From positions 6,521 through 70,520 of the forward strand of contig JAJEGO010000014.1 in the NCBI GenBank assembly GCA_022819805.1: a stretch of DNA of 64,000 nt. Direction: 5' to 3'. The notes beneath the pieces are model-generated. The model did not search any database. It saw nothing but the letters and a program-made list of their open reading frames with translations, and had not been told where the DNA came from. A program made the translations under genes and the position numbers. Of this stretch, positions 9,888 through 26,419 are shown in pieces. The stretch comes from Candidatus Dadabacteria bacterium (lineage in GTDB: Bacteria; Desulfobacterota_D; UBA1144; Nemesobacterales; Nemesobacteraceae). The stretch's first letter is position 1; every line of letters starts with the position of its first letter.

Positions 9888-9990
9888 AAGTGCAGATCGA
9901 GGACTTTATCTGAGTTTGTGCTTTTTCGGTTGCGGCGTTGAAAGAGACCTCGGTCAGCGGGTCTCGGGAGCGACCCTTTCCCTTTGCTAC
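9888..9990 (+). pseudogene. Chimeric remnant: a roughly 25-37 bp anmK-like fragment fused to a roughly 65-bp nagZ-like fragment
   Basis: The core 9891-9912 (gatacagaagtgcagatcgaggactttatctg) matches anmK 10155-10186 (gataccgaagtgcggatcgaagactttatctg); including flanking bases the match extends to about 9885-9912. 9923-9990 (ttttcggttgcggcgttgaaagagacctcggtcagcgggtctcgggagcgaccctttccctttgc) matches nagZ 11445-11510. Both matches have only a few mismatches. Confidence 0.5.
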
Positions 9991-10036
9991 GGAATGTTCC
10001 TGCCCAAGACCAGTTTCATCAGGTAGCTTTCTCTCC

Positions 10037-11224
10037 GTGAACTGGCTTCGTCCGATAATTTCAAAAAAGGAAAAACTCATCATCGGACTCATTTCCGGGA
10101 CTTCAATGGACGGTATTGACGCGGCGCTGGTGAGAATTCGCGGCTCGGGAGAAGATACCGAAGTGCGGATCGAAGACTTTATCTGCCGGGAGTATTCCGA
10201 TGCCGCGAGGAGGCTTCTTCTCTCAATCGGTTCCCTAAACGCCGGTTCCCTTTCCGACCTCAATTTCCTCCTCGGCCGGGAGTTTGCCGCCGCAGTCTTT
10301 GATCTTCTCAGCAAAGCATCCCTGAAAACGACCGACGTGGATCTTGTGGGCACCCACGGCCAGACGGTTTTTCACAATCCGCCCTCTCTCGGGGGGGATA
10401 TTTCTTCAACTCTTCAGCTCGGCGAAGCTGACGTTATATGCGAGGCAACGGGAATTACCACCGTGGGAGATTTCAGGACGAGGGACATGGCGGCTGGCGG
10501 AGAAGGTGCTCCCCTTATGCCCTACGTGGATTACCTGCTGTTCTCTGGAACCGGGAAGAACATAATCGCCCAGAACATAGGGGGTATTTCCAACTGCACT
10601 TTGGTTGCGGGGAAACCCAGGGAGCTTCTGGCGTTCGATACGGGCCCCGGCAATTCCCTGATCGATTCGGTGGCGCGCCTTGCATCGGGAGGCGAGAAGA
10701 GCTTTGACGAGGACGGTGCGATGGCAAAGCAAGGTTCGGTTAAAGAAGATCTCCTGCGCAGCCTCATGAAAAATCCTTACTTCGACATAGAGCCCCCTAA
10801 ATCGACCGGCAAGGAGCTTTTTGGAGAGGAAATGGTCACAAGGCTTTTTCTGCTTGTAGAAAAAAAGGACATCTCCCTGCCCGATCTTCTGCGCACGCTT
10901 GTCGAATTTACCGTCTGTTCCATAGTCTCGGCCTACGAAAGATTCATCTATCCTCGCGCGGATGTGGAGGAAGTGATACTGAGCGGAGGTGGTGCCCGAA
11001 ACCCTCTCATGGTTTCCAGGCTTCGCGAAAAACTCGCTCCGACGCGGCTTCGGCTTTCGGATGAATACGGTATTCCCGCGGATGCCAAGGAAGCCGTGGG
11101 ATTCGCGGTACTCGCGAATGAGACCGTGTGCGGGAACCGGGCCAACGTGCCGGAAGTCACGGGAGCCCGAGACTCCACGGTTCTGGGGAAAATCTCAATC
11201 GGGAAGAATATAGTAAATGTATGA
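10037..11224 (+). CDS. anmK: Anhydro-N-acetylmuramic acid kinase AnmK
   Basis: GLISGTSMDGIDAALV N-terminal signature. The start is probably GTG at 10037 (VNWLRPIISKKEKLIIG), because no ATG lies in frame upstream of the signature. About 395 aa. Confidence 0.85.
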   Translation: MNWLRPIISKKEKLIIGLISGTSMDGIDAALVRIRGSGEDTEVRIEDFICREYSDAARRLLLSIGSLNAGSLSDLNFLLGREFAAAVFDLLSKASLKTTDVDLVGTHGQTVFHNPPSLGGDISSTLQLGEADVICEATGITTVGDFRTRDMAAGGEGAPLMPYVDYLLFSGTGKNIIAQNIGGISNCTLVAGKPRELLAFDTGPGNSLIDSVARLASGGEKSFDEDGAMAKQGSVKEDLLRSLMKNPYFDIEPPKSTGKELFGEEMVTRLFLLVEKKDISLPDLLRTLVEFTVCSIVSAYERFIYPRADVEEVILSGGGARNPLMVSRLREKLAPTRLRLSDEYGIPADAKEAVGFAVLANETVCGNRANVPEVTGARDSTVLGKISIGKNIVNV

Positions 11225-11285
11225 GAATCCGGCAGTTTTCTCGTCAAAAGATCTCACCGCGCCCCGTCGCTCGGCGCAGTTTATT

Positions 11286-12734
11286 ATGCCGAGGATCGAT
11301 TTTCGAGATCCCGATTCCGTCAGGAGGGCGGAACTCCTCGTGCGGGATTTCTGCGTCTGCGGTTTCATAGTATTCAACGGGGAAGTTGAGCAGGTGAGGG
11401 AAACCACCGGTAGGCTTGCGTCCTTGTCCGAGTTCCCGCTTCTCTTCGGTTGCGACGTTGAAAGGGGCCTCGGTCAGCGGGTCTCGGGAGCGACCCTTTT
11501 TCCCTTCGCGATGGCCCAGGGGGCGATGGACGACGAGGAGGCCCTGAGACGCCAGGCCGTTATAACCGCCCGGGAGATGAAGTACTGCGGCCTTAACCTT
11601 GGTTTTGCCCCCGTTCTTGACATAAATACCGAGCCCAAAAACCCGATAATAAACGTGAGGGCGTTCTCAGATGACCCCGCGGTCGTTTCAAGACTGGGAA
11701 GCGTCTTCGCGGAGACCCTGCAGAAAGAGGGAGTGCTTGCCTGCGCAAAGCATTTTCCCGGCCACGGCGCCGCCCTGGAGGATTCCCATGCCCGGCTCCC
11801 AAGCGTCGAAAGATCCTTAGAGCGTCTTATGGAATCGGATATTGCGCCTTTTAGAGAAGCGATTGCGAAAAGGCTTCACTGCGTGATGCCGGCTCATGTC
11901 TGTTTTCCCTCTCTTGACCCGCTCGGTGCCCCGGCCACCCTGTCAAAGCCGGTCCTGCACGGCCTCCTGCGGGAAAAACTGGGATTCAGCGGCTTGGTTG
12001 TTTCTGACTCCTTCAGGATGGACGCCTTGGGGGGAGAGGAGCGGGAAGAGGAAAACATTCTGGCCGCCATTGCAAGCGGGGTTGATATTGTTTTGGATCC
12101 CAGAGATCCCGAGGGCTTCCTTAAAAGATGCGCGGAGGAGGATTTTTTTCAGGATCCCGCCCGGGCAGAGTCTCTTTCCAGGATATTCTACGCGAAAAAG
12201 CTTTTCGCCTCGGGCGGCGAAGAAGAGAGCACGCCCGATTTTGAGAGAAACGCCGGAGAGGCAAGGGAAATTACCCGCCGCTCGGTCTGCGTTTTGCGAG
12301 GAGAAGCTCTTCGCGGCAGGAAAGTCTCAGTTTTGCATTTCGGTACGGAAGACACAGAAGAGCTTCTCGGCGGACTTTGCGGGGGGCTCTCCGAGGGGGG
12401 AGTGGCGGTGGAGAAGAGTTTTTCCTGGTCCGAGGCACCGGAGCTTCGCGACGATCGCCCGCTTGTATGCGTTTTATCAACCGCTCCGGCGGGCTGGACG
12501 GAAAACAGCGTTGTTCCCCGGGCTGTAATGGATCGCATAAAGGATTTCTCCTCTTTCTCGGGTGAAAAAGTCCTGATTACCTTCGGTTCCCCGTATCCTG
12601 CCGCCGGGTTTCCTTTTTTCGATACTGTTGTCTCGCTTTTTGATTCCTCGCCCACGGCGGGCCGGGCGGCTGCGGAGGTTCTCACGGGAGAGAGGTCTTC
12701 TGCGGCAAGGCTTCCGGTGAAAATAACGCTATGA
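11286..12734 (+). CDS. nagZ: Beta-N-acetylhexosaminidase NagZ (GH3) with a C-terminal extension
   Basis: GH3 motifs KHFPGHG, VMPAHVCFP and GLVVSDSFRMDALGG. The alternative in-frame start at 11217 overlaps the anmK stop. Confidence 0.85.
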   Translation: MPRIDFRDPDSVRRAELLVRDFCVCGFIVFNGEVEQVRETTGRLASLSEFPLLFGCDVERGLGQRVSGATLFPFAMAQGAMDDEEALRRQAVITAREMKYCGLNLGFAPVLDINTEPKNPIINVRAFSDDPAVVSRLGSVFAETLQKEGVLACAKHFPGHGAALEDSHARLPSVERSLERLMESDIAPFREAIAKRLHCVMPAHVCFPSLDPLGAPATLSKPVLHGLLREKLGFSGLVVSDSFRMDALGGEEREEENILAAIASGVDIVLDPRDPEGFLKRCAEEDFFQDPARAESLSRIFYAKKLFASGGEEESTPDFERNAGEAREITRRSVCVLRGEALRGRKVSVLHFGTEDTEELLGGLCGGLSEGGVAVEKSFSWSEAPELRDDRPLVCVLSTAPAGWTENSVVPRAVMDRIKDFSSFSGEKVLITFGSPYPAAGFPFFDTVVSLFDSSPTAGRAAAEVLTGERSSAARLPVKITL

Positions 12735-14473
12735 AGCTCTACGCCATAGACTGGATGCTTGTTGGTCTCTATCTGGTTTTTTCCCTGGGCGTGGGCTTTT
12801 ATTTTTCAAGAAGGGCGTCGGGGAGTCTTTCTGACTATTTCGTTTCGGGACGCGGGCTTCCCTGGTGGCTTCTTGGAACCTCCATGGTCGCCACCACTTT
12901 CGCCGCCGACACTCCCCTTGCCATAACGGGGTGGATAAGAACCGAGGGAATATGGAAGAACTGGTTCTGGTGGAACTACATCTTCAGCCACGCGCTCGTG
13001 ATAGTGGTTTTCTCAAGGCTCTGGAGAAGGGCGGAGGTGATAACCGACAACGAGCTCATAGAGCTTCGCTACGGGGGCCGCCCCGCGGCGTTTCTCCGCG
13101 GCTTCAAGGCGTTTTATTTCTCGACGATTTTCAATTTCATAGTCATGGGGTGGGTGATCACCGCCATGACCAAGGTGTTTGAGGTCTTTTTCGGAGTCGG
13201 GCAGATATACGCCGTTTCGCTCTGCGTCGGAATCGTGCTCGTCTACACGGTTTTCTCCGGGCTCTGGGGAGTCGTGATAACGGATTTCGTGCAGTACGCA
13301 ATAGCGCTGGGCGGCACGATCATACTCGCCGTTGTGGTCATAAATTCTGACGCGGTCGGAGGGTACAGTCAGTTCGTAAGCAAAATAGCGGAACTTCCCC
13401 CGGAGCAGACTTCCATGTTCATCACGCAGCCCACAGGCGGCGAAGAGTTTTTCTCTTCTGATTTTTTCACCTTCCTTGTCTTCATGACCGTCGTCTGGTG
13501 GTCTTCCCACAACGCGGACGGGGGAGGCTATTTCATACAGCGCCTGTGCTCCGCGAAGAACGAGAGACACGCGCTTGCGGGCACCGCCTGGTTCGCGGTT
13601 AACCATTACGTGCTCCGCCTCTGGCCCTGGGTCCTGGTCGCCTTGGCCTCGGTCGTGATCTTTCCCGAAGCGGCGGGGGTGACGGGCGGGGACGACGAGT
13701 CGATGTACCTTGTGATGATAAGGGATTTTCTCCCTCCGGGCCTTCGGGGCCTTCTGCTGGTTTCCTTTCTCGCGGCGTTTATGTCCACGGTCTCCACCCA
13801 CCTTAACTGGGGCGCGTCGTACCTCGTGAACGACCTCTACAGAAGATTCGTGCGCCAAAGCGCCCCGCAGGGTCATTACGTGCGGGTCTCAAGGATCGCG
13901 ACCGTCGTGCTTGCCGTCATCGCGGGCGTGGTGGCGCTTCAGATAAAGAACATAGGGGACGCATGGATATTTCTCTGGGCAATGAGTTCGGGAATCGGCC
14001 TCGTGCTGATACTGAGGTGGTTCTGGTGGAGGATAAACGCCTGGAGCGAGATAGTGGCGCTTGCCTCGTCGCTTGCGACCATACTGGTTTTGATTCTCTA
14101 CACAGAAGCGAAGGGAGTTCCGCTGGAACTGCGCCACCAGATACTTGTTGTTCCCGTCTCGATAACCTGCTGGGTTGTGGCTACTTTCGTTACCTCTCCC
14201 GAGTCCTGGGAAAAACTCTCGGCATTCTACTCGAGGGTAAGGCCCCCGGGCCTCTGGTCGCCTGTCCGGAAGAGGGCGGGGGTTGCGCCGCAGCGGGGAG
14301 TTTTTTCTTCGGTTTTTCTTAACTGGTCGCTTGTGGTGTCTTTCCTCCTCTGTTTCATGATAGGCGCGGGCAAGCTCGTTCTTGGAGACGGCGAAAGCGC
14401 GCTCTGGCTTCTTTCGGTCTCGGCGGTTGCGTTTCTCCTCATCCTGCGCCGTCGCCACAGTTTTTTCCGCTAA
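12731..14473 (+). CDS. Sodium:solute symporter (SSS/SSF) family permease
   Basis: 580 aa with about 13 TM helices. Start overlaps the nagZ stop (ATGA coupling). Confidence 0.8.
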   Translation: MKLYAIDWMLVGLYLVFSLGVGFYFSRRASGSLSDYFVSGRGLPWWLLGTSMVATTFAADTPLAITGWIRTEGIWKNWFWWNYIFSHALVIVVFSRLWRRAEVITDNELIELRYGGRPAAFLRGFKAFYFSTIFNFIVMGWVITAMTKVFEVFFGVGQIYAVSLCVGIVLVYTVFSGLWGVVITDFVQYAIALGGTIILAVVVINSDAVGGYSQFVSKIAELPPEQTSMFITQPTGGEEFFSSDFFTFLVFMTVVWWSSHNADGGGYFIQRLCSAKNERHALAGTAWFAVNHYVLRLWPWVLVALASVVIFPEAAGVTGGDDESMYLVMIRDFLPPGLRGLLLVSFLAAFMSTVSTHLNWGASYLVNDLYRRFVRQSAPQGHYVRVSRIATVVLAVIAGVVALQIKNIGDAWIFLWAMSSGIGLVLILRWFWWRINAWSEIVALASSLATILVLILYTEAKGVPLELRHQILVVPVSITCWVVATFVTSPESWEKLSAFYSRVRPPGLWSPVRKRAGVAPQRGVFSSVFLNWSLVVSFLLCFMIGAGKLVLGDGESALWLLSVSAVAFLLILRRRHSFFR

Positions 14474-15258: not shown

Positions 15259-15287
15259 TTGACATTACCCCCTCATTAAACTACAAT
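15259..15287 (+). promoter_or_regulatory. Near-consensus sigma70-type promoter
   Basis: TTGACA at 15259-15264, 17-nt spacer, TACAAT at 15282-15287. It sits in an AT-rich stretch about 170 nt upstream of the giant autotransporter ORF. Confidence 0.5.
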
Positions 15288-15459: not shown

Positions 15460-18400
15460 ATGGTGGAACATAAGCGGCTTGTCTCTCGGGTAGAGTGCCA
15501 GCGAAAACCCCTCTTGTCCCCGCATCCAGGCAAGGAAAGGGCCAAGCCAGTCCCGAACCGGGCGGATTTTGGGTTACTTGAAACCTTACTGACGCTCTTT
15601 TGCCTAAAGGCCCTGCGTTCCTCATCTTTTATTAGAAAAACAGCAATCCTGAAAAGCAGGATCTGCCTCCTGCTGGCGGTGCTTTTGCCGCTAGCGGTTC
15701 TTTCCGTAACCGCACACGCTGCCAACGGGGATCTTCGATTGTGCGATACCACGGTCACGAACAGCTGTACGGTTACGACTGACATAGGCAGGCTCGAAGT
15801 TGAGTATAACGGGATGTGGAAGGGGGTGTGCGATGACTATTTCACGAGTCACGAGGCAAGAGTCGCGTGCGGGCAATTAAATTACCCCAATTCACGATAC
15901 GCTAAGACTCTGTTGAGGCTGGACGGACCGACGAGAGCGCATCGTCATAACGGCGAATTCTGGCTTGATGATCTGCTCTGTGGCCAAGGTGATAATACTG
16001 TGGACAACAAGCTGATGGATTGTGCTAGGGCTGGTTCTGGTGCAGGTAATGAAATTGAACCCGGAGAGTCTGGTTATTGGGGGGAGCATAACTGCAAAAG
16101 CAATGAATATGCGGGGGTTGTATGCGTTATCACCGCTCCGGCTAAGCCTACGAACCTGGAAGCGGAAGCTAAGGGGCAGAGCATGATAGTGCTTAATTGG
16201 CGTGCTCCCAACTCCTATGTGGAAGGCTACAAAATCGAGGTCTCAGAGAATGGTGGCAACGACTGGGATGATCTTGAGTCCGACACTGGCAATGCGGACA
16301 CGACATATACCCATAGCGGCCTCCCTCCCAGCGCCACGCGACACTACCAGGTTTCGGCTATTAACTCAGAGGGCACAAGCGATCCTTCAAACATAGCAAG
16401 CGCCACGACAGAAGGCGTACCTCCTCCTTCGGATCAACCTGGAACGGTGGCCCTGTCTTTTTCGCAGCTCGAGATCGGGACGGCGTTAACTGCGACTTTA
16501 ACTGATCCTGACGGTTCTATAGCGAATGTCGAGTGGACATGGTACAGGTCAGCTGACAAAAGCAACTGGAATCCGATCTCCGGCGCCACGAGCAGCGGTT
16601 CTGCGACCGCGACCTACACGCCGGTTGCCGACGGCGATCCGAATGTTGAAGATGACGAGGATAAATACCTGCGGGCGGTGGCCTCTTATGACGATGGCCA
16701 CGGTCCCAATAAAAGCGCGGAGGCGGAATCCGCCAGCAAGGTTCCTGCAGTAAACTGGGCGCCCTCCTTTGATCCTGATCCGCCACCGAGCACCTTTTCT
16801 GTTGACGAGAACACGGGGACTGGAGTAAACATCGGGACGCCGATCGGGGTTACGGATCCGGAAGGTGAACCGCTCACCTACTCGCTTGACGATGGGGACG
16901 GCGATTCGTTCGCCATTGATTCCTCCGGGCAGATAAAGACCAAGTCGGCGCTTGACTACGAAGTCAAAAGTTCTTACACGGTCGAAGTTAAAGTCACGGA
17001 CGGAACCACGGAGATTACGACCACCGTGACCATTAACGTAACCAATGTTGAGGAAGATGGGACCGTGACCCTGTCTAGTTATTCTCCGAATGTGGGAATA
17101 GAGCTGACCGCTGAATTGGAGGATCCTGACGACGGTGTAACGGGTATCACATGGCAGTGGCAGCGCAAGTCATCCGGCGGGACTTTCACGAATATCCCCG
17201 GCGCCACGAGCAGCGGTTCTGCGACCGCAACCTACACGCCGTCCACAGGAGATCTGAATCATCTTCTGCGGGCAAAGGCATCCTACACGGACGGGCACGG
17301 TTCCAACACCGACATGGCGTATGCGGATTCAAACGAAGCGGTAACGGACACATGCCCTCCAAACCACCAAAACGAGGCGCCCGAGTTCAAAATCTCACCA
17401 CCCACGTTTTCTGTGGCTGAGAACACGAGGTCCGGAGTAAATGTCGGGACGCCGGTTACGGCTGAGGATGGAGACGCCGGTCAGCAAATCAGGCTCACCT
17501 ACTCGCTTGACGATGGGGACGGCGATTCGTTTTCCATTGAGAATGACAATTCTCCCGGGCAGATAAAGACCAAGTCGGCGCTTGACTACGATACGCAAGA
17601 TTCTTATACGGTCACGGTTTCCGTAACGGATCCGTGCGGCGAGGAAGATACCATCGACGTAACAATCAACGTTACCGAGCCCGCACCTCCGTCTTCAAAC
17701 ACGAGGGCACCCAACTCCGAGGTGACGAAGTCCGCCCCGGCTCCAACGGCAAAGGTTCCGCAGGCTCCCGCGAATTTAACTGCGGGGCGCGGTGACGGCG
17801 AGGTAACGCTTAGCTGGAGGGTCCCGAATGACGGCGGAAGCGTTATTAAGTACTACGAATACATGATTGATGATGGCCCGTGGATCTCGACCAAGGGAAA
17901 ATCCACTACCCACACTGTCGCCGGGCTTACCAACGGAGAGACCTATAAATTCAAGGTGCACGCGGTGAACGTCATCGGTCCCGGTCCCGGGTCAAGACCG
18001 GTGAAAGCCACGCCTGCCACCGTGCCCGGCCCCCCGCGCAATCTGACGGTGGCTCCGGGCGATCAGCGCGCGACGCTTATGTGGGAGCGGCCTGCGGATA
18101 ACGGCGGTCTTCCGATCACCAGTTACGAGTACGTCCAGAAGGAGGGAAGCGGCTCGTTCGGCAGCTGGATATCCATAGATAACAGCGGTCCCATGGAGAC
18201 AAATGAAACGAGCTATGTGGTCACGGGACTTAAAGACGGCACCGTTTATTCTTTCAAGGTGCGCGCGGTGAACGCCGTGGGTCCGGGAGACGCCTCGGCC
18301 GAGGCCACGGCCGAGACGAGCACTTCCGCCTCCCGGCGCCTGAGGCGCGTCAGCCTCAGCATTCTTCCCGAGTTCGGGAGGACCCTGGCGAGGAATTCCC

Positions 18401-19887
18401 TTGACGCGCTTGCCTGGCGTCTTGACAGCGTCCTTTCGGGATCCTTTGAGCGTACGGGGATGTTCAGGCTTATGGATCAGCACGCGGGGCTCCACGATGT
18501 CATCGGAATTGATATATGGGATGATCCGGAACTGTCGGAAGAGCTCAGCCTCGAGGAGTTGCTCTACGGGTCTTCATTCATAATCGAGGCCGGAGGGATG
18601 CCTAGGAAACCAAAGCAATATCCAACAAAACAGCGGCCTAAGGAAGCTCCCAAGAAGCATGCCGGGGAACATTCGAAAGAATTACCGGAAGAATTACGGA
18701 GGGAATATCCTCAGGATGAGGATATGTGGATTGACGAGGGCGGAAAACCGAATCTCATCGAGAGGCGGGGCGATATGGCGTTTTGGGGCAAGGCGGACTA
18801 CAGCGCCCTCTCGGTCGGCAGAAGCGGCGAAAACCTGAGCTGGGATGGCGGCATAACAAGCGGTTATCTCGGGGTCGACAGACGGTTAACCGAGAATGTG
18901 CTGACGGGAATTTCCGTCGCTTTGACGAAGGGAGATTTCGATTACACGGACTCCACCCCGGGGGAGGGAGGAAGCGGAGATTACCATGTGAAGATGCTCA
19001 GCGTGTCTCCGTACATCGCGTGGCTTATGTCCGAGGATGCTTACCTCTGGGGCGCAATCGGCTATGGACGCGGGGAAATAGACATAGACGACGAAGAAGT
19101 CCAGAGCGTCGCTTCAGGCGACCTCAGCTACAAGTCGGTGGCCGCGGGAGGAAGTGGCAGAGTGTTTGACTTGGGAGACACTACCTTCTCGCTTAAAGGT
19201 GAAGCGTTTAAGGTATGGATGGACGTGGAGGGCGAAGATTACCTGATTGATGACTCATCCGTGGGTGTACACCAGCTGCGCCTCGGCATGGAGGGAAGCT
19301 ACGAGTACCGCTTCGCGTCCGGAGCCTGGTTCAATCCCCTTGTGGAGGTCGCTCTTCGCCACGACGGGGGAGACGGGGAGACGGGCACCGGGGTTGAAAT
19401 CGGAGGCGGTTTCCTCTTCGAAGACCCGGATATGGGTCTTAGCATTGCGGGCAGGGGGCGCTGGCTGGCGGTGCACAGTTCCGATGAGTTCAGTCAATGG
19501 GGAGTTGGAGGAACCGTGATCTTCGATACGGGAGCGGACAAAGAAGGCGCGCTGTTCAGCGTGGCTCCCGGATGGGGAGACACTTCAAGCGGGATTGAGA
19601 ATCTCTGGGAGCGCGGAGCGGAAGGGGTGTCGTCAGAATACGGCAGAGACAACAGTCTGCATCTTGACGCGGAGTTCGGATACGGACTCCCGGCTCTCGG
19701 CGGGGACGGGATTCTCACTCCCTACAGCGGACTCAGGATGAGAGCAGACGGGTGGCGACAGTACCGCCTCGGCAGTCGTCTGGATCTCGGGCGTTCTACG
19801 AGTCTGAGCCTTGAAACCGAGCGAAGGCAGAGCGATGCGAAGAAGCCTGAGCACGGAATCATGCTGAGAGGAAAGCTTAATTTCTGA
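15460..19887 (+). CDS. Giant surface protein, predicted type V autotransporter adhesin with SRCR-like, FN3 (x3), cadherin (x2) and unclassified repeat (x2) passenger modules
   Basis: 1475-aa ORF. A signal-peptide-like segment (ILKSRICLLLAVLLPLAVLSVTAHA) follows a roughly 60-aa N-terminal extension. The SRCR-like domain spans residues about 91-223 (EVEYNGMWKGVCDD, ARVACGQL, FWLDDLLC, WGEHNC, AGVVCV). Two cadherin repeats carry F-S-V-D/A-E-N, LTYSLDDGDGDSF, QIKTKSALDYE/D and TVTINVT motifs. FN3 modules have W..P..GG..I..Y.Y and Y.F.V.AVN motifs. A helical linker precedes a roughly 370-aa C-terminal beta-domain ending ...GIMLRGKLNF, i.e. a terminal Phe. Confidence 0.8.
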   Translation: MVEHKRLVSRVECQRKPLLSPHPGKERAKPVPNRADFGLLETLLTLFCLKALRSSSFIRKTAILKSRICLLLAVLLPLAVLSVTAHAANGDLRLCDTTVTNSCTVTTDIGRLEVEYNGMWKGVCDDYFTSHEARVACGQLNYPNSRYAKTLLRLDGPTRAHRHNGEFWLDDLLCGQGDNTVDNKLMDCARAGSGAGNEIEPGESGYWGEHNCKSNEYAGVVCVITAPAKPTNLEAEAKGQSMIVLNWRAPNSYVEGYKIEVSENGGNDWDDLESDTGNADTTYTHSGLPPSATRHYQVSAINSEGTSDPSNIASATTEGVPPPSDQPGTVALSFSQLEIGTALTATLTDPDGSIANVEWTWYRSADKSNWNPISGATSSGSATATYTPVADGDPNVEDDEDKYLRAVASYDDGHGPNKSAEAESASKVPAVNWAPSFDPDPPPSTFSVDENTGTGVNIGTPIGVTDPEGEPLTYSLDDGDGDSFAIDSSGQIKTKSALDYEVKSSYTVEVKVTDGTTEITTTVTINVTNVEEDGTVTLSSYSPNVGIELTAELEDPDDGVTGITWQWQRKSSGGTFTNIPGATSSGSATATYTPSTGDLNHLLRAKASYTDGHGSNTDMAYADSNEAVTDTCPPNHQNEAPEFKISPPTFSVAENTRSGVNVGTPVTAEDGDAGQQIRLTYSLDDGDGDSFSIENDNSPGQIKTKSALDYDTQDSYTVTVSVTDPCGEEDTIDVTINVTEPAPPSSNTRAPNSEVTKSAPAPTAKVPQAPANLTAGRGDGEVTLSWRVPNDGGSVIKYYEYMIDDGPWISTKGKSTTHTVAGLTNGETYKFKVHAVNVIGPGPGSRPVKATPATVPGPPRNLTVAPGDQRATLMWERPADNGGLPITSYEYVQKEGSGSFGSWISIDNSGPMETNETSYVVTGLKDGTVYSFKVRAVNAVGPGDASAEATAETSTSASRRLRRVSLSILPEFGRTLARNSLDALAWRLDSVLSGSFERTGMFRLMDQHAGLHDVIGIDIWDDPELSEELSLEELLYGSSFIIEAGGMPRKPKQYPTKQRPKEAPKKHAGEHSKELPEELRREYPQDEDMWIDEGGKPNLIERRGDMAFWGKADYSALSVGRSGENLSWDGGITSGYLGVDRRLTENVLTGISVALTKGDFDYTDSTPGEGGSGDYHVKMLSVSPYIAWLMSEDAYLWGAIGYGRGEIDIDDEEVQSVASGDLSYKSVAAGGSGRVFDLGDTTFSLKGEAFKVWMDVEGEDYLIDDSSVGVHQLRLGMEGSYEYRFASGAWFNPLVEVALRHDGGDGETGTGVEIGGGFLFEDPDMGLSIAGRGRWLAVHSSDEFSQWGVGGTVIFDTGADKEGALFSVAPGWGDTSSGIENLWERGAEGVSSEYGRDNSLHLDAEFGYGLPALGGDGILTPYSGLRMRADGWRQYRLGSRLDLGRSTSLSLETERRQSDAKKPEHGIMLRGKLNF

Positions 19888-19902: not shown

Positions 19903-19919
19903 CCGAAAAAGGTTTTCGG
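19903..19919. terminator. Short inverted repeat between convergent genes, a possible bidirectional terminator hairpin
   Basis: ccgaaaa-agg-ttttcgg forms a perfect 7-bp stem. Confidence 0.35.
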
Positions 19920-19944
19920 GCAAGCGTCCGCTCTTTTGCGGCGG

Positions 19945-21792
19945 CTAAAGCCAGTCGTCCTCAAACGTGTCGTTCGGGCGCTGGTGAAAAGCTCCCGTGT
20001 CCAAGCTGTTTTTAAACCCGCGGAACTTAAGCAGGCCCGAAATCGCGGGTTTTATCTGGCTTCTTTCAACCACCAGGTGAACTCCTCCGTGTTCCTCGTA
20101 GAATTCAGAGGACATTATTTTCGGGTCGACCCCTCGGCCGCCGCTTGTGAGTTTCACGACGCGGTCTCCCGCAAAAGCTATGGTCGCTTTTTTCTCTGCT
20201 ATCAGGAAGTCTCCCTGAACTGCGTAGCTCGCGAGAGCCCCTCCCGTTGTCGGGTGGCCGAGTATGGAGATGTTCGGAAGCCCGTGCTCCTTGAGCCTCA
20301 TTATCGCGGATATGGTCTTCGCCATCTGGTAGAGCGCCACGGTTCCTTCCTGCATCCGCGCGCCTCCGCTTACCGTCACGGTTACCAAGGGAAGCCTGTT
20401 CTCTATGGCGTAGCTTACGACTCTGTTCATTTTCTCGCCGAAGACTGAACTCATTGACCCTCCCATGAACCGGAAATCGCAAGTAGCCACCGCAACGGGT
20501 ATGCCGAACATGGTTCCGTAACCGGTTACCAGGGAATCTTTCGAGTCGGTTTTCCCGGCAAGCTTCTGCCTGGAAGACGAATAGTTAAAGAACTTGTAGA
20601 CGGAATCCACGTCTTCAAGAGAGAGCGCGGGTTCTATTTCGTGGAAGGACGCCTCGTCGAGAAGAAAGTCCAGATAGTCATCGGAACTAAGTGCTTCGGG
20701 GCGGCCGCAGTAAGGACACGAAGAATTGTTCGCGTGCAGTTCCTTTTTCGTAAGCTGTTTCTTGCAGCCGGGGCGTATGATTTTGCCCTGGCCGTCCTTC
20801 TCGTCGTTGCAGAAATGGGGTTCCGCCCCGTAGATGGCTATCTGCATTTCCGAAATGTCGGGATTCTCCTTTTTTCCGCTGAAGTAGTTGGGAAGCCAGG
20901 CCTTTATTTTCTTTGAGATTCCCTCGTAGATTTTCTGCTGCTTTTTTATCCGTCCGCAGCGCTCGATCTTCCTTCGCAGTTCCTCTCGCAGGTGCCTCAC
21001 GTCGTAGCGGTCAAGTTCCTTCGAGGCGGCGGTGAGGGAGGCCTGCAGGTTCTTTAGGGTCGCGGCGATATAATTGTTTTTTCCAAGAGGGGGTTCTTTA
21101 ACTACCTCGTCTATTATTCCGTATTTCTTCATGTGATTTGCCGTGGGCTGCAGCACTTCTAGGGCTTCCGCCACCTTGTCCGCGCTTCTGAAAAGAATGG
21201 CGGAGCAGCCTTCGGCGGTTATCACGGAATATTCGGCTCGGGAGAGCATCAGTCTCTTGTGTCCAAGCTGTATTGCGATCGCGCCCCCGCTCCCCCCGAG
21301 CCCGAGCACGGTGGTTATCGTTTTCGTTCTTAAGGAAATCATTTTCGACTGGCAGTAGGAAATGAGCCAGGACTGGAGTTTTTCGGCTGAGTACTCGTAG
21401 GGGTCTCCGCCGACGGTGTCGATGAAGGTGAAGAGCTTGAGACGGTTCTGCTCGGCGTATTCCATCATGCAAAACGAGAGCCCGTAACCGTCGGCCTTTA
21501 CCATTCCGAAGTTAAGCTTCGTTCTTTCCTTTTCGCTTGAAGGGGTCTGCTGGGCTATTACGGCCACTTCCTCTCCGGTGGCCTTGAACACGGCGGTGCC
21601 TACTATTACGGCCGGGTCGTTAGCGAATTCAACCTTCTTGCCCGAGGGGGCGTGGAGAAAGTTCCTGAACCCCGAGAGCTTGTTCCAGGGAGTAAAGTCG
21701 GTAAAGAGGGTTCCGATCAGGTGCTTTGACTTTATCCTGTCAAAGCTCTTTGCTTCCTCGTGGGCCTGAAGTGTTTTTGCCGTCGATGCCAT
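19945..21792 (-). CDS. Acetyl-CoA carboxylase carboxyltransferase, fused alpha (AccA-like, N-terminal) and beta (AccD-like, C-terminal) subunits
   Basis: The N-terminal half carries AccA motifs (NFGMVKADGYG, FIDTVGGDPY, GLGGSGGAIAIQLGHKRLMLSRAEYSVITAEGCSAIL). The C-terminal half begins with a 4-Cys zinc-ribbon region (FCNDE...GC...SCPYCGRPE). It then carries AccD motifs (FRFMGGSMSSVFGEK, SGGARMQEG, GHPTTGGALASYA, IAFAGDRVV). Confidence 0.8.
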   Translation of the reverse strand: MASTAKTLQAHEEAKSFDRIKSKHLIGTLFTDFTPWNKLSGFRNFLHAPSGKKVEFANDPAVIVGTAVFKATGEEVAVIAQQTPSSEKERTKLNFGMVKADGYGLSFCMMEYAEQNRLKLFTFIDTVGGDPYEYSAEKLQSWLISYCQSKMISLRTKTITTVLGLGGSGGAIAIQLGHKRLMLSRAEYSVITAEGCSAILFRSADKVAEALEVLQPTANHMKKYGIIDEVVKEPPLGKNNYIAATLKNLQASLTAASKELDRYDVRHLREELRRKIERCGRIKKQQKIYEGISKKIKAWLPNYFSGKKENPDISEMQIAIYGAEPHFCNDEKDGQGKIIRPGCKKQLTKKELHANNSSCPYCGRPEALSSDDYLDFLLDEASFHEIEPALSLEDVDSVYKFFNYSSSRQKLAGKTDSKDSLVTGYGTMFGIPVAVATCDFRFMGGSMSSVFGEKMNRVVSYAIENRLPLVTVTVSGGARMQEGTVALYQMAKTISAIMRLKEHGLPNISILGHPTTGGALASYAVQGDFLIAEKKATIAFAGDRVVKLTSGGRGVDPKIMSSEFYEEHGGVHLVVERSQIKPAISGLLKFRGFKNSLDTGAFHQRPNDTFEDDWL

Positions 21793-24457: not shown

Positions 24458-25363
24458 ATGAGATACACAGCGGCAAATGCGAGTTTTTGGCTTGTGGCGA
24501 TACTTTTGATTCTTGGTTCATCGCAGGCTTCGGCCGAGGATAAGTTCTATATCGGGCTTGAGGGGGGATTTTCAAAGTCGGGAGATCTGGGCATTTCCCA
24601 TTCTTTTGTAAATCACCCAACCCGGTGCGATTCGCTTCTTTATCCCTCGGGCGCGACTCCGCCGACTGACGCGGAATGTGTGGCCGATAAAACATCGACC
24701 GTCGCGAATGTGTTTAGCCCCGGCACGGGGTTTGTGGCCGGTGCGACTTTTGGTTATGCGCTCGGCAACGGGCTGCGCTTTGAAGCGGAGTACCTTAACC
24801 GCCGTCAGTCCTCCGAGAGAAGGCTCGTGCGTCTCGGTTCGGCGAGCGATGATCCGCTTGATCAGAAGAGCAGTGAATGGGATGAGAACGATCCTCCCTC
24901 AGAACGCGTGTATGACATCGGTGCACATCATCTCTTCCTGAACGCTTACTATGACTTGCGCAATGACTCGCCTATTACGCCTTATGTCGGAGCCGGTGTA
25001 GGCATGGGGTCGGTGGAAATGCGCTACTCGGCGAGATTCCTGCGCAGGAGCGATCTGGGAACGGAGCCATGGCAGGATGCCGCGGAAGGCACAACCAGCT
25101 CCATTAATCCTGCGCTTAAAAAAATCAGGTTCGGTTTTCAGGTGATAGGCGGAGTTGATTACGCGCTTGGCGACGATTTCTCAGTTGGCGCCAAGGTCCG
25201 CTGGACACGCCTCAGCGGTTTTGACCGCGACGACGTGCCCTGGACCGAAATCCGGGACCACGCACCTGTACGGGCCGACGGGGTTACGCCGCTTACTTCA
25301 GATTTTGAAGTGGATGACATGGATAACTGGACCGTTACGGTAGGGCTCAAGTATTATCTCTGA
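24458..25363 (+). CDS. Outer membrane beta-barrel protein (OmpA-like TM barrel family), paralog 1
   Basis: Signal peptide MRYTAANASFWLVAILLILGSSQASA. Amphipathic beta-strand pattern. Ends GLKYYL. RBS aaggaga. Confidence 0.7.
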   Translation: MRYTAANASFWLVAILLILGSSQASAEDKFYIGLEGGFSKSGDLGISHSFVNHPTRCDSLLYPSGATPPTDAECVADKTSTVANVFSPGTGFVAGATFGYALGNGLRFEAEYLNRRQSSERRLVRLGSASDDPLDQKSSEWDENDPPSERVYDIGAHHLFLNAYYDLRNDSPITPYVGAGVGMGSVEMRYSARFLRRSDLGTEPWQDAAEGTTSSINPALKKIRFGFQVIGGVDYALGDDFSVGAKVRWTRLSGFDRDDVPWTEIRDHAPVRADGVTPLTSDFEVDDMDNWTVTVGLKYYL

Positions 25364-25510
25364 ACGCTCTACTTTCCGACAAGCGTTCCCATGAGTTTCC
25401 AGTCTTCTTCCACTAAGGTTCCACTTGCGGCGGCGCAGTCCTTTTTCGTTTCGGCTGGTATTGTTTGACCGTGAACGGTTCTTGAGTTGAGAGATACAAG
25501 GAGAAAATAC

Positions 25511-26419
25511 ATGAGACATTTTGCTGGCAACGGGTGTTATTGGTTTGTGGCAGTTCTTTTGGCGTCCGCCTTGTCGGTGACGGATTCCGCGGCGGAAGGT
25601 TTCTATATCGGGCTTGAAGGGGGATTTTCAAAGTCGGGAGACTTGAACGTTTCCCAGTCTTTCATTGATCATCCGACCCGGTGCGATTCGTTTCTCTATC
25701 CTTCCGGCACGACTCCGCCGACCGACCCGGAATGCACCACCGATAGAATATCTACCATTGCAAACGTTTTTGTCCCCGGCGCGGGGTTTATGGGTGGCGC
25801 AACTCTTGGATACGCGCTCGGCAACGGGCTGCGTTTTGAGGCGGAGTATCTAAACCGCCGCCAGGGTTCGCAGAGAAAGCTCGTGCGCCTCGGTTCCGGC
25901 GGCGGCGAAACGTTCGATCAAAAGCAGAGCGAATGGGACGAGAACGATCCTCCCTCAGAACACGTGTATGACTTAAGGGCCCATCATTTCTTCCTGAATG
26001 TCTACTACGACCTGCGCAACGACTCGCCCTTTACGCCCTATATCGGAGGAGGCGCGGGTTTGGGTTCGACGGAAATGCGCTACTCGGCCAGATTCCTGCG
26101 CGGGAGCGCCCTGGGTACGGAACCGTGGCAGGTGGCCGTGGCGGGCACGCTCAGCGACATAGACACGGAACTGGGAAAAACCAGGTTCGGTTTTCAGGTG
26201 ATAGGCGGAGTTGATTACGCGCTTGGCGACGATTTCTCAGTTGGCGCCAAGGTCCGCTGGACACGCCTCAGCGGTTTTGACCGCGACGAGGTGTCCTGGA
26301 CGCGGGTCAGAGGCCACGAATCCATACGCGTCGACGGCGTTACGCCGCTTACGGCCGATTTCGAGGTGGATGACACAGACATCTGGACCTTTACGGTCGG
26401 GCTTAAGTATTATCTCTGA
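25511..26419 (+). CDS. Outer membrane beta-barrel protein, paralog 2 (tandem duplicate)
   Basis: About 75-80% identical to paralog 1, with the same Cys pair (RCDS...PPTD.EC) and the same ...GLKYYL terminus. Start at ATG 25511 after aaggagaaaatac. Confidence 0.7.
   Translation: MRHFAGNGCYWFVAVLLASALSVTDSAAEGFYIGLEGGFSKSGDLNVSQSFIDHPTRCDSFLYPSGTTPPTDPECTTDRISTIANVFVPGAGFMGGATLGYALGNGLRFEAEYLNRRQGSQRKLVRLGSGGGETFDQKQSEWDENDPPSEHVYDLRAHHFFLNVYYDLRNDSPFTPYIGGGAGLGSTEMRYSARFLRGSALGTEPWQVAVAGTLSDIDTELGKTRFGFQVIGGVDYALGDDFSVGAKVRWTRLSGFDRDEVSWTRVRGHESIRVDGVTPLTADFEVDDTDIWTFTVGLKYYL

What the first reader, a model, noticed from the sequence alone, without database searches (positions are those of the whole stretch)
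15730..16126. SRCR (scavenger receptor cysteine-rich)-like domain in a bacterial protein
Residues about 91-223 read GDLRLCDTTVTNSCTVTTDIGRLEVEYNGMWKGVCDDYFTSHEARVACGQLNYP ... GEFWLDDLLCGQGDNT ... LMDCARAG ... GYWGEHNCKSNEYAGVVCV. They line up with the canonical SRCR consensus motif by motif. G-R-[VL]-E-[VI]-Y-x-N-G-x-W-G-T-V-C-D-D is matched by RLEVEYNGMWKGVCDD. A-x-V-V-C-R-Q-L-G-C-G is matched by ARVACGQLNYP. G-P-I-W-L-D-D-V-x-C-x-G-x-E is matched by EFWLDDLLCGQGDN. W-x-x-H-N-C-x-H-x-E-D-A-G-V-x-C is matched by WGEHNCKSNEYAGVVC. Eight Cys are present, with one insertion before the final motif. A bacterial SRCR domain is rare and is usually read as eukaryote-to-bacterium transfer, or as convergent use in host mimicry.
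Basis: partly seen in the sequence, partly recalled or inferred. Interest (0 to 1): 0.85.

Follow-up and report, generated by a model that had tools for sequence, protein, structure and literature searches.

The report
SRCR-tipped bacterial autotransporter adhesin

Summary
Residues 89-223 of a 1475-aa ORF (15460-19887, +) are a real SRCR domain. Pfam PF00530 scores 46.5-55 bits against a cut-off of 26.1. The closest solved proteins are CD163, DMBT1, MARCO and neurotrypsin. The AlphaFold model matches only SRCR structures. The six canonical cysteines and all side chains of the dual cation site are present. It is group-A-like: the two extra cysteines are an N-terminal pair, not the group-B pair.

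The protein is a classical autotransporter: long leader, SRCR, FN3, two (unassigned repeat + cadherin) units, two FN3, linker, PF03797 barrel ending in F. The gene lies in core chromosome DNA of a Candidatus Dadabacteria lineage (phylum Thermodesulfobacteriota). At least seven related species-level genomes carry it at the same locus. The SRCR tip is the most divergent part (35-54% identity; barrel 76-81%; neighbouring genes 92-96%) but is under purifying selection.

SRCR domains also occur in several other bacterial lineages, including a second autotransporter, so they are uncommon but not unique. The origin is unresolved, and no close eukaryotic donor was found.

Best reading: a surface adhesin presenting a Ca2+-dependent SRCR binding head, probably for contact with a sponge host. 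The ligand is unknown.

The parts
15259..15287 (+). Promoter-like site TTGACA-17-TACAAT (11 of 12), about 170 nt upstream of the ATG
   Evidence: Consensus scan. Two such sites were found in the scanned region against 2.3 expected, so this is only a candidate.
15460..19887 (+). Whole gene: 1475-aa SRCR-FN3-cadherin autotransporter, stop codon included
   Evidence: ORF list. Pfam architecture. The exact protein is present in the public collection, unnamed.
15460..15723 (+). 88-aa leader: conserved N-terminal extension (MVEHKRLVS...) followed by a Sec-type signal peptide (KSRICLLLAVLLPLAVLSVTAHA|A)
   Evidence: Alignment of 8 orthologues. The first 6 residues are invariant and the first 9 nearly so, and the reading frame is kept through 3n indels. 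No Pfam family, so not ESPR. The signal peptide and cleavage site are read by eye, not predicted by a tool.
15724..16128 (+). SRCR domain (aa 89-223; Pfam match aa 109-222). Canonical Cys: C124, C137, C174, C188, C212, C222. Extra pair: C95/C103. Cation-site residues: D125, D126, D170, D171, N211, E216
   Evidence: Site residues were mapped on SALSA SRCR8 as described in PMC7043408.
16129..16425 (+). Fibronectin type III domain 1 (about aa 224-322), directly after the SRCR domain
   Evidence: Pfam fn3, 3 stretches, 116.7 bits. Boundaries are approximate.
16426..16770 (+). Unassigned beta-rich repeat 'repA' copy 1 (about aa 323-437)
   Evidence: Internal repeat found with an HMM built from the two copies. 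No Pfam family.
16771..17073 (+). Cadherin domain 1 (about aa 438-538)
   Evidence: Pfam Cadherin, 2 stretches, 92.3 bits. PKD-like match at aa 451-527.
17074..17394 (+). repA copy 2 (about aa 539-645)
17395..17694 (+). Cadherin domain 2 (Pfam best stretch aa 649-739)
17722..18315 (+). Fibronectin type III domains 2 and 3 (about aa 755-852 and 853-952)
   Evidence: Pfam fn3 best stretch aa 858-950. DUF4959/fn3-like match at aa 764-839.
18316..18759 (+). Linker between passenger and barrel (about aa 953-1100). No family assigned.
   Evidence: No Pfam match. 63-68% identical among orthologues.
18760..19884 (+). Autotransporter beta-barrel translocator (about aa 1101-1475), ending ...LRGKLNF
   Evidence: PF03797: 46.5 bits in the whole protein and 50.8 bits on the isolated C-terminus, cut-off 26. 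76-81% identical among orthologues. No PDB relative by sequence.
19917..19930 (+). Terminator-like hairpin followed by a T-run, 30 nt after the stop codon
   Evidence: Consensus scan, (7 sites found against 4.7 expected). Candidate only.

Best explanation
The gene encodes a classical (type Va) autotransporter adhesin of a Candidatus Dadabacteria-type bacterium. After Sec export through a long leader, the C-terminal beta-barrel inserts into the outer membrane. It displays a passenger built as a stalk of beta-sandwich modules: FN3, two (repA + cadherin) units, then two FN3. The stalk holds one SRCR domain at its membrane-distal tip. The SRCR domain is the binding head. It keeps the acidic dual cation site through which animal SRCR domains (SALSA/DMBT1, MARCO, CD163, CD6) bind their mostly anionic ligands in a Ca2+-dependent way. 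The most likely role is attachment to, or recognition by, an animal (sponge) host, either its cells or its matrix. The fast divergence of the tip reflects adaptation to different hosts or ligands. Shown here: domain identities, their order, conservation of the cation-site residues, synteny, the divergence gradient and purifying selection. Inferred: secretion and surface display, Ca2+-dependent binding, the nature of the ligand and the host association of this particular genome.
For: SRCR identity: Pfam 46.5-55 bits against a 26.1 cut-off. All PDB sequence hits are SRCR proteins. The AF2 model has pLDDT 78 and pTM 0.76, and all 47 Foldseek PDB hits with E <= 1e-3 are SRCR structures; MARCO and M2BP, both classed as group A from general knowledge, give the highest target-normalised TM-scores, 0.75-0.77. 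Binding site: D125, D126 and E216 correspond to site 2, and D126, D170, D171 and N211 to site 3 of SALSA SRCR8. Mutating the site-2 aspartates abolishes all tested ligand binding in SALSA (PMC7043408; mapping). D125, D126, D170 and E216 are invariant in 16 bacterial SRCR domains. Autotransporter: PF03797 at 46.5-50.8 bits against a cut-off of 26, a C-terminal Phe, and an N-terminal signal-peptide-like segment conserved in 8 genomes. The SRCR domain sits at the N-terminal, hence distal, end of the passenger. Conservation: the same gene lies between the Fer4 gene and accA-accD in seven species-level MAG chromosomes. Identity gradient: SRCR 35-54%, barrel 76-81%, neighbouring genes 78-96% (mostly 91-96%). 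dN/dS of the SRCR segment against the closest strain is 0.24, so it is functional. Lineage: the window's Lon protease is 97% identical to one named 'Candidatus Dadabacteria bacterium', and NCBI places that class in Thermodesulfobacteriota. One orthologue comes from a Langseth Ridge MAG, and that site's metagenomes are from Geodia-type sponges (PMC8826442). Dadabacteria are regular sponge associates, and cadherin and FN3 genes are enriched in sponge MAGs and read as attachment factors (PMC8163846).
Against: No experiment exists on any bacterial SRCR protein. The ligand is unknown. The barrel has no detectable relative among solved structures, and its Pfam match covers only profile positions 1-209 of 255. 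The passenger is not the beta-helix typical of classical autotransporters. The signal peptide was judged by eye. In one high-coverage relative (L001, 137x) the SRCR-coding part carries a 28-nt deletion and a TGG->TGA change, so the tip can be lost. The AF2 model was built on an alignment made of SRCR sequences, so the fold match is not independent of the sequence match.
Confidence: 0.6

Rival explanations
1. The SRCR head binds other microbes rather than an animal host. As in DMBT1, MARCO or CD6, the domain recognises bacterial surface polymers. The autotransporter would then mediate co-aggregation or biofilm formation, or attachment of a small-genome bacterium to another cell as an epibiont or predator.
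For: Animal SRCR domains bind bacteria and bacterial surface proteins (PMC7043408; titles and abstracts). Most non-Dadabacteria bacterial SRCR proteins found here are from lineages I know as predatory: Bradymonadia, Oligoflexales, Halobacteriovoraceae, Polyangiaceae, Sandaracinaceae. The genomes of this clade are small, 1.5-2.3 Mb.
Against: The motif-restricted scan biases which lineages were found. I know of no report that Dadabacteria are predators or epibionts. The cadherin/FN3 stalk is the pattern described for attachment in sponge symbionts, although that paper also allows bacterium-bacterium attachment.
Confidence: 0.2
2. Host mimicry or decoy. The passenger, and the small secreted two-SRCR paralogues in related genomes, imitate the sponge's own abundant SRCR receptors. 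They would compete for the receptors' ligands or mark the bacterium as 'self', so that it is not phagocytosed. Adhesion would be secondary.
For: Related MAGs encode 400-430-aa proteins with a signal-peptide-like N-terminus and two SRCR domains (L014, L020, L021). Sponges have very large SRCR repertoires thought to mediate microbe recognition (PMC4850255; PMC10855680, abstract). In the NJ tree, Geodia SRCR domains fall next to the clade, but with 1% bootstrap support.
Against: No close host-like sequence was found; the best eukaryotic identity is about 40%, and bacterial SRCRs score equally well. There is no evidence that the passenger is released. The tree signal is unsupported.
Confidence: 0.12
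3. The SRCR module is a decaying or merely structural remnant of an old acquisition, with no binding role of its own.
For: L001 (137x coverage) has a frameshifting 28-nt deletion and a stop codon inside the domain, while the remaining 1234-aa ORF is intact. The domain is the least conserved part of the protein. GC3 is lower than in the rest of the gene in all seven genomes.
Against: dN/dS is 0.24. The six cysteines and the cation-site residues are kept in every intact orthologue despite 35-54% identity. The domain is retained at the same position in at least seven species.
Confidence: 0.05
4. Artefact: a eukaryotic (host) fragment mis-assembled into a bacterial contig.
For: The related contigs have names in the style of long-read metagenome assemblies, and several low-coverage relatives (2x-5x) contain frameshifts.
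Against: It is one uninterrupted ORF from the leader to the barrel. The same architecture sits at the same locus in seven chromosome-scale MAGs and four further contigs. Bacterial housekeeping genes lie on both sides. The exact protein was seen on two contigs.
Confidence: 0.01

Closest known systems
Group A SRCR domains of animal scavenger receptors (MARCO, M2BP/LGALS3BP, SCARA1, SCARA5)
   Same: Six-cysteine pattern. Best structural matches are MARCO 2oy3/2oya (TM 0.77 on the target) and M2BP 1by2 (0.75), with SCARA5 7c00 at 0.75. The acidic cluster equivalent to the MARCO/SALSA site 2 is present.
   Different: About 28-30% identity. Three loop insertions, 135 aa against about 100-110. An extra N-terminal Cys pair, C95/C103. 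A bacterial gene, attached to an autotransporter instead of a collagenous or transmembrane stalk.
Group B SRCR domains of DMBT1/SALSA and CD163
   Same: Highest sequence scores against PDB chains (CD163, 132 bits summed over its domains). The motifs GRLEV, W.xVCDD, WLDD..C and HNC...E.AGV.C are shared. All site 2 and site 3 cation-coordinating side chains are conserved.
   Different: Lacks the group-B C1-C4 pair: no Cys before GRLEV at the canonical spacing and none in 'QLGCG'. A single copy rather than a tandem array.
Classical (type Va) autotransporters, Pfam PF03797
   Same: N-terminal leader, passenger, then a C-terminal PF03797 barrel ending in an aromatic residue. The same window holds a second, more typical one with a GDSL-lipase passenger.
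   Different: The passenger is a chain of FN3, cadherin and repA beta-sandwich modules with an SRCR tip, not a beta-helix. The barrel region is long (about 375 aa) and has no PDB relative by sequence. The leader is not the Pfam ESPR type. A search for papers containing both 'SRCR' and 'autotransporter' gave one unrelated paper.
Eukaryotic-like attachment proteins of sponge symbionts (cadherin and FN3 domain proteins)
   Same: Cadherin and FN3 domains in a surface protein of a lineage common in sponges. Such genes are enriched in sponge MAGs and interpreted as attachment factors (PMC8163846).
   Different: That paper mentions neither SRCR nor autotransporters, and a broader search found no paper that links SRCR domains to symbiont genomes. 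Here the export route is explicit: an autotransporter barrel.
Other bacterial SRCR-domain proteins (database annotations only)
   Same: PF00530 domains with the same six cysteines and acidic residues occur in MAGs of Bradymonadia, Oligoflexales, Sandaracinaceae, Polyangiaceae, Pseudomonadales, Verrucomicrobia, Alphaproteobacteria and Halobacteriovoraceae. The 2720-aa alphaproteobacterial protein (L019) is also an autotransporter, with a colinear SRCR-FN3 junction.
   Different: 28-42% identity to the window's domain. Most carry the SRCR domain at the C-terminus of unrelated proteins. None is characterised.
Intimin/invasin-type adhesins (inverse autotransporters); functional analogy only, from general knowledge
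   Same: An outer-membrane barrel plus a rod of Ig-like modules that presents a eukaryote-type binding domain at the tip.
   Different: Opposite topology (barrel at the N-terminus). The tip is C-type-lectin-like, not SRCR. No sequence relationship was tested or claimed.

Membership tests
SRCR domain superfamily (Pfam PF00530) | Profile score above the curated gathering threshold | tested here: met
   46.5 bits (whole protein) and 55 bits (segment) against 26.1; profile positions 8-99 of 100.
SRCR domain superfamily (Pfam PF00530) | Six conserved cysteines at the canonical positions (C2, C3, C5, C6, C7, C8 in group-B numbering) | tested here: met
   C124, C137, C174, C188, C212 and C222 are the only invariant columns in a 58-sequence alignment with bacterial and metazoan-type SRCR domains. 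They are also invariant in 16 bacterial domains and align to the CD163 cysteines.
SRCR domain superfamily (Pfam PF00530) | SRCR alpha/beta fold | tested here: met
   AF2 model with pLDDT 78 and pTM 0.76; low confidence only in the two larger insertions. All 47 Foldseek PDB hits with E <= 1e-3 are SRCR domains. Caveat: the input alignment consisted of SRCR sequences.
SRCR domain superfamily (Pfam PF00530) | Disulfide connectivity C2-C7, C3-C8, C5-C6 | not testable with these tools
   Model coordinates are not returned, so only positional homology of the cysteines could be shown.
SRCR domain superfamily (Pfam PF00530) | Acidic dual cation-binding site (SALSA SRCR8: D1019, D1020, E1086 / D1020, D1058, D1059, N1081) | tested here: met
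   D125, D126, E216 / D126, D170, D171, N211. Actual metal binding was not tested.
SRCR group B | Additional C1-C4 disulfide (Cys two residues before GRVEV and Cys in QLGCG) | tested here: not met
   The sequence reads QLNYP. The two extra Cys (C95, C103) lie 7 and 15 residues before G111 of GRLEV, and L008, L010 and L011 lack them. The domain is therefore group-A-like.
Classical (type Va) autotransporter | C-terminal autotransporter beta-domain (PF03797) above threshold | tested here: met
   46.5 bits in the whole protein and 50.8 bits on the isolated C-terminus against 26. Four of the five aligned barrels match on their own.
Classical (type Va) autotransporter | N-terminal Sec signal peptide | tested here: inconclusive
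   A basic n-region, a hydrophobic core and AHA|A are read by eye and conserved in 8 genomes. No signal-peptide predictor was available.
Classical (type Va) autotransporter | C-terminal aromatic residue (outer-membrane insertion signal) | tested here: met
   The protein ends ...GIMLRGKLNF, and the orthologues end in F.
Classical (type Va) autotransporter | Sequence relationship to a structurally solved translocator | tested here: not met
   phmmer and a 5-sequence profile found no autotransporter in the PDB.
Classical (type Va) autotransporter | Beta-helical passenger (typical, not strictly defining) | tested here: not met
   The passenger consists of SRCR, FN3, cadherin and repA modules.
Extended signal peptide region of type V proteins (Pfam ESPR) | Profile match in the N-terminal extension | tested here: not met
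   No Pfam family at E <= 10 for aa 1-88.
Eukaryotic-like proteins of sponge symbionts | The organism is sponge-associated | tested here: inconclusive
   Dadabacteria-type lineage. One orthologue comes from a Langseth Ridge MAG. The sample metadata for the window and for the OZ-series MAGs could not be read.
Eukaryotic-like proteins of sponge symbionts | Enrichment in host-associated relatives over free-living ones | not tested
Free-living Dadabacteria were not surveyed.

The most novel reading that the evidence does not exclude
The SRCR tip, together with the secreted two-SRCR paralogues in sister genomes, is a symbiont-side counterpart of the sponge's own SRCR recognition system. It would be a mimic or matching partner that decides whether the bacterium is tolerated or eaten, and its rapid divergence between species would track host species. 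More broadly, the spread of SRCR domains among predatory bacteria and two autotransporter lineages would mean that the SRCR fold is a cell-surface-recognition module shared and exchanged between bacteria and early animals, rather than an animal invention borrowed once.
Probability: 0.15. Interest if true: 0.8.

Novelty: new variant of a known kind. Interest (0 to 1): 0.55.

Why it matters
How sponges tell resident symbionts from food bacteria is an open question. SRCR receptors are a leading host-side candidate, while ankyrin, FN3 and cadherin proteins are the usual symbiont-side candidates. This locus offers a bacterial surface protein that carries the host-type recognition domain itself. It has a defined export route, an intact cation-binding site, orthologues in many related genomes and a clear gradient of divergence. 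That makes it a concrete candidate for binding and uptake assays. It also shows that SRCR domains are more widely scattered in bacteria than usually assumed. These bacterial proteins include a second autotransporter and several from lineages I know as predatory, which bears on the origin and ancestral function of the fold.

Tried and rejected
(1) A word-indexed homologue search with the single domain gave only 4 close hits. A profile of 16 bacterial domains was needed to reach the wider family.

(2) The exhaustive phmmer search of 1.84 billion representatives was dominated by multi-SRCR animal proteins, because scores sum over domains. Apart from one further orthologue (P0242), it did not identify a nearest single-domain relative.

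(3) An NJ tree of 201 domains with 100 bootstraps and reciprocal phmmer ranking were used to look for a donor. Outside the orthologue clade (99% support) nothing is resolved, and the Geodia grouping has 1% support, so it was dropped as evidence.

(4) Looking up the contig of the Geodia protein P0060, to check whether it is really eukaryotic, found no record.

(5) PDB sequence searches for the barrel, single sequence and profile, gave no relevant hits.

A single-sequence run was judged not worth the job.

(7) Pfam at E <= 10 on the repA copies, the linker and the leader gave nothing usable.

(8) NCBIfam on the whole protein gave no meaningful match.

(9) The Rfam and tRNA scans of the window show only one tRNA-Gly, which is unrelated.

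(10) The key paper on sponge-specific Dadabacteria (Gavriilidou et al. 2023) is not held in the library. Only its title could be cited, via PMC11008079.

(11) The low GC3 of the SRCR segment was considered as evidence of foreign origin. It was rejected as decisive, because fast evolution or amino-acid composition explain it equally well.
Full report
**Observation.** The finding's coordinates fall inside one long ORF, 15460..19887 on the + strand, 1475 aa. The quoted peptide is there: G91 starts at nt 15730 and V223 at nt 16126. Pfam-A places PF00530 (SRCR) on aa 109-222, covering profile positions 8-99 of 100. The score is 46.5 bits (E = 4.9e-12) in the whole protein and 55 bits (E = 1.1e-14) for the excised segment, against a gathering cut-off of 26.1. 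A phmmer search of all PDB chain sequences returns only SRCR proteins: CD163, PIT54, CD5L, neurotrypsin, DMBT1, MARCO, M2BP, SCARA1/5, CD6, LOXL2.

**Anatomy of the domain.** An alignment of the window's domain with 57 other SRCR domains, bacterial and metazoan-type, has exactly six invariant columns. These are the cysteines C124, C137, C174, C188, C212 and C222 (numbering). The same six are invariant in an alignment of 16 bacterial SRCR domains, together with D125, D126, A133, D170, G208 and E216.

Three of the orthologues lack them. There is no cysteine at the group-B 'QLGCG' position, where the window reads QLNYP. The domain is therefore group-A-like: six Cys, plus a lineage-specific pair. 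In the AF2 model this pair flanks the turn of the first beta-hairpin (strands at segment residues 5-14 and 19-29). I infer that the pair staples the hairpin.

Compared with CD163 domains there are three insertions, of about 6, 4 and 14 residues. The AF2 model has low confidence at the two larger ones (segment residues 70-75 and 107-118). The model (pLDDT 78, pTM 0.76) was searched against the PDB with Foldseek. All 47 hits with E <= 1e-3 are SRCR domains. MARCO (2oy3/2oya) and M2BP (1by2), which I class as group A from general knowledge, give the highest target-normalised TM-scores, 0.75-0.77. The model was built on an SRCR alignment, so this agrees with the sequence result but is not independent of it. 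Model coordinates are not returned, so the disulfide connectivity could not be checked.

**Functional residues.** Reichhardt et al. (PMC7043408) showed that SALSA/DMBT1 SRCR8 binds ligands through a dual cation site. Site 2 uses D1019, D1020 and E1086. Site 3 uses D1020, D1058, D1059 and N1081. The D1019A and D1020A mutants lose binding to hydroxyapatite, heparin and a streptococcal protein. The same surface is used by MARCO, CD6 and CD163. These residues sit in the motifs VCDD, (L)DD(V) and HNC...SED. Through the CD163 alignments they map to D125, D126 and E216, and to D126, D170, D171 and N211 in the window's protein. Every coordinating side chain is present. Four of them are invariant across the 16 bacterial domains.

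**The whole protein.** Pfam also finds three FN3 stretches (116.7 bits), two cadherin stretches (92.3 bits) and an autotransporter beta-domain, PF03797 (46.5 bits; 50.8 bits on the isolated C-terminus; cut-off 26). The protein ends in ...LRGKLNF. Between the FN3 and cadherin domains lie two copies of a roughly 110-aa repeat that has no Pfam family. I call it repA.

The first 88 residues are a leader. Its first six residues (MVEHKR) are invariant in eight genomes and the next three (LVS) nearly so. Its reading frame survives indels only in multiples of three. It ends in a typical signal-peptide-like segment, KSRICLLLAVLLPLAVLSVTAHA|A. It does not match Pfam's ESPR.

The order of parts is: leader, SRCR, FN3, repA-cadherin, repA-cadherin, FN3, FN3, linker, barrel. 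This is a classical autotransporter whose passenger is a rod of beta-sandwich modules with the SRCR domain at the far end. A near-consensus promoter-like site (15259-15287) and a terminator-like hairpin (19917-19930) flank the gene. Both are candidates only. The barrel has no detectable relative among solved structures.

**Genomic and taxonomic context.** The window is ordinary chromosome. It encodes PurH, phosphoglycerate mutase, AroA, ribosomal protein S1, GlnD, NadB-like, GGT, Lon, AnmK, a GH3 enzyme, an SSF transporter and an accA-accD fusion. It also carries a second autotransporter with a GDSL-lipase passenger.

The Lon protease is 97% identical to an NCBI protein named 'Candidatus Dadabacteria bacterium'. 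It is 94-96% identical to about 40 clusters on contigs of up to 2.1 Mb. NCBI taxonomy now places Candidatus Dadabacteria as a class of Thermodesulfobacteriota, which explains the label on the related MAGs.

A scan of GTDB species representatives with SRCR motifs found seven 'Thermodesulfobacteriota bacterium' MAGs (chromosomes 1.5-1.9 Mb, plus the Langseth_MAG_00013 contig). Each has the same gene, and where the flank is available it lies between the Fer4 gene and accA-accD. Four ENA metagenome contigs show the same synteny.

The Langseth Ridge metagenomes come from Arctic Geodia-type sponge grounds (PMC8826442). Dadabacteria are regular sponge associates. Cadherin and FN3 genes are enriched in sponge MAGs and are read as attachment factors (PMC8163846). 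A sponge-specific order, Ca. Nemesobacterales, has been described, but I could cite only its title through PMC11008079, because the paper is not held. Whether the window's own genome comes from a sponge could not be checked.

**Evolutionary pattern.** Against seven orthologues, identity to the window's protein is 35-54% in the SRCR domain. It is 35-83% in the stalk modules, 63-68% in the linker and 76-81% in the barrel. The flanking housekeeping proteins are 78-96% identical, mostly 91-96%. The number of repA-cadherin units varies between orthologues, with one to four repA copies detected.

Against the closest strain (L002, 95.9% nucleotide identity), the SRCR segment has dN/dS = 0.24, from 9.5 synonymous and 8.5 non-synonymous differences. 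The SSF gene gives 0.05. The tip therefore evolves fast but is constrained.

In one high-coverage relative (L001, 137x) the SRCR-coding part has a 28-nt deletion and a TGG->TGA change, while the following 1234-aa ORF is intact. GC3 of the SRCR segment is lower than in the rest of the gene in all seven genomes: 0.48-0.57 against 0.59-0.645.

**Other bacterial SRCR domains and origin.** The same scan found PF00530 domains in MAGs of Bradymonadia, Oligoflexales, Sandaracinaceae, Polyangiaceae, Pseudomonadales, Verrucomicrobia and Alphaproteobacteria. It also found small two-SRCR proteins in the Dadabacteria-type MAGs themselves. NCBI already names a Halobacteriovoraceae protein as SRCR domain-containing.

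The alphaproteobacterial protein (L019, 2720 aa) has a C-terminus homologous to the window's barrel (29% identity over 409 aa, E = 9e-19). Its SRCR-FN3 junction is colinear with the window's. It is a second autotransporter that carries SRCR domains.

In an NJ tree of 201 domains the autotransporter SRCRs form a clade with 99% bootstrap support. Everything deeper is unsupported: 15% for the link to the two-SRCR paralogues and 1% for the link to Geodia and alphaproteobacterial domains. Ranking by phmmer score shows bacterial domains (Bradymonadia, Halobacteriovoraceae, Pseudomonadales) and animal domains (Geodia, Porites, Mytilus) equally close, at 50-78 bits. The exhaustive search found 3173 cluster representatives at E <= 1e-3. 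Its top hits are multi-SRCR animal proteins.

The domain was thus already present in the common ancestor of this group of species. No recent donor is visible, and the direction of transfer is open.

**Mechanism and rivals.** I read the protein as a surface adhesin. Sec export is followed by barrel insertion and display of a modular stalk with a Ca2+-dependent SRCR binding head. The most probable target is a sponge host surface or matrix component (confidence 0.6 for the adhesin model as a whole). The rivals are:
- binding to other microbes, 0.2. Animal SRCRs bind bacteria, and the other bacterial SRCR carriers are mostly lineages I know as predatory;
- host-receptor mimicry or a decoy, 0.12;
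- a decaying remnant, 0.05. This is argued against by dN/dS and by the conserved site residues;
- an assembly artefact, 0.01. This is excluded by the synteny.

**Novelty.** The domain is a clear member of a known family, and so is the barrel. New here are the combination (an SRCR-tipped autotransporter), its conservation and tip-focused divergence in a Dadabacteria lineage, and the companion two-SRCR proteins. Full-text searches found no paper that links SRCR with autotransporters or with symbiont eukaryotic-like proteins. I rate it a new variant of a known kind, of moderate interest, with a concrete and testable hypothesis for sponge-symbiont recognition.

Noticed in passing
window 48235-50124 (-): A second, more conventional autotransporter: GDSL lipase/esterase passenger plus PF03797 barrel (123.7 bits), 629 aa.
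   Followed up: partly
window 16426-16770 and 17074-17394 (+): Two copies of a roughly 110-aa repeat ('repA'; motif LTATLTDPDG..W.W.RS...W..I.GATS..YTP...D..YLRA.A.YTD..G) with no Pfam family. They alternate with cadherin domains. Orthologues hold one to four copies. A similar module sits between the two SRCR domains of the small proteins in L014, L020 and L021.
   Followed up: partly
window 15460-15723 (+): Unusually long (88 aa) leader. Its first six residues (MVEHKR) are invariant in eight genomes and the next three (LVS) nearly so. It has a second hydrophobic patch (LLxLFCL) before the signal peptide proper. It does not match Pfam ESPR.
   Followed up: partly
L001 10200-10340 (137x contig, 1.66 Mb): The orthologue's SRCR-coding part has a 28-nt deletion and a TGG->TGA change, while the downstream 1234-aa ORF is intact. 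In the same locus, a transposase-like HTH_28/29 gene lies between the Fer4 gene and the autotransporter gene, and an AbiEi/AbiEii pair lies downstream.
   Followed up: partly
L014 5044-6363; L020 5665-7107; L021 4966-6303: The related Dadabacteria-type MAGs also encode small (about 400-430 aa) proteins with a signal-peptide-like N-terminus and two SRCR domains (PF00530, 103 bits in L014). These are possible secreted paralogues of the autotransporter tip.
   Followed up: partly
L012, L013, L015, L017, L018; P0008: SRCR domains at the C-terminus of otherwise unrelated proteins in MAGs of Bradymonadia, Oligoflexales, Sandaracinaceae, Polyangiaceae, Verrucomicrobia and Halobacteriovoraceae. Most of these are lineages I know as predatory. 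In L013, L017 and L018 a long Ala/Gln-rich, coiled-coil-like region precedes the domain. The scan was motif-restricted, so the taxon list is biased.
   Followed up: no
L019 3307-11496: A 2720-aa alphaproteobacterial MAG protein with two SRCR domains, six cadherin-like domains, Calx-beta, FN3 and a C-terminus homologous to the window's barrel. Its SRCR-FN3 junction is colinear with the window's (27% identity over 225 aa).
   Followed up: partly
window 15724-16128 and the same segment in L005-L011: GC3 of the SRCR-coding segment is consistently lower than in the rest of the gene: 0.48-0.57 against 0.59-0.645 in all seven genomes. The cause is undetermined.
   Followed up: partly
window 19945-21792 (-): A single 615-aa gene that fuses ACCA and Carboxyl_trans domains (the two acetyl-CoA carboxylase carboxyltransferase subunits). 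It is conserved at 91-94% identity in the related MAGs.
   Followed up: no
window 24458-25363 and 25487-26419 (+): Two adjacent small outer-membrane beta-barrel genes of the Opacity/OMP_b-brl type, also present in the syntenic contigs L002 and L004.
   Followed up: no
window 9938-14473 (+): AnmK, a GH3 (NagZ-like) enzyme and an SSF transporter lie in a row just upstream, which looks like a cell-wall sugar recycling or uptake cluster. It is conserved in all related loci.
   Followed up: no
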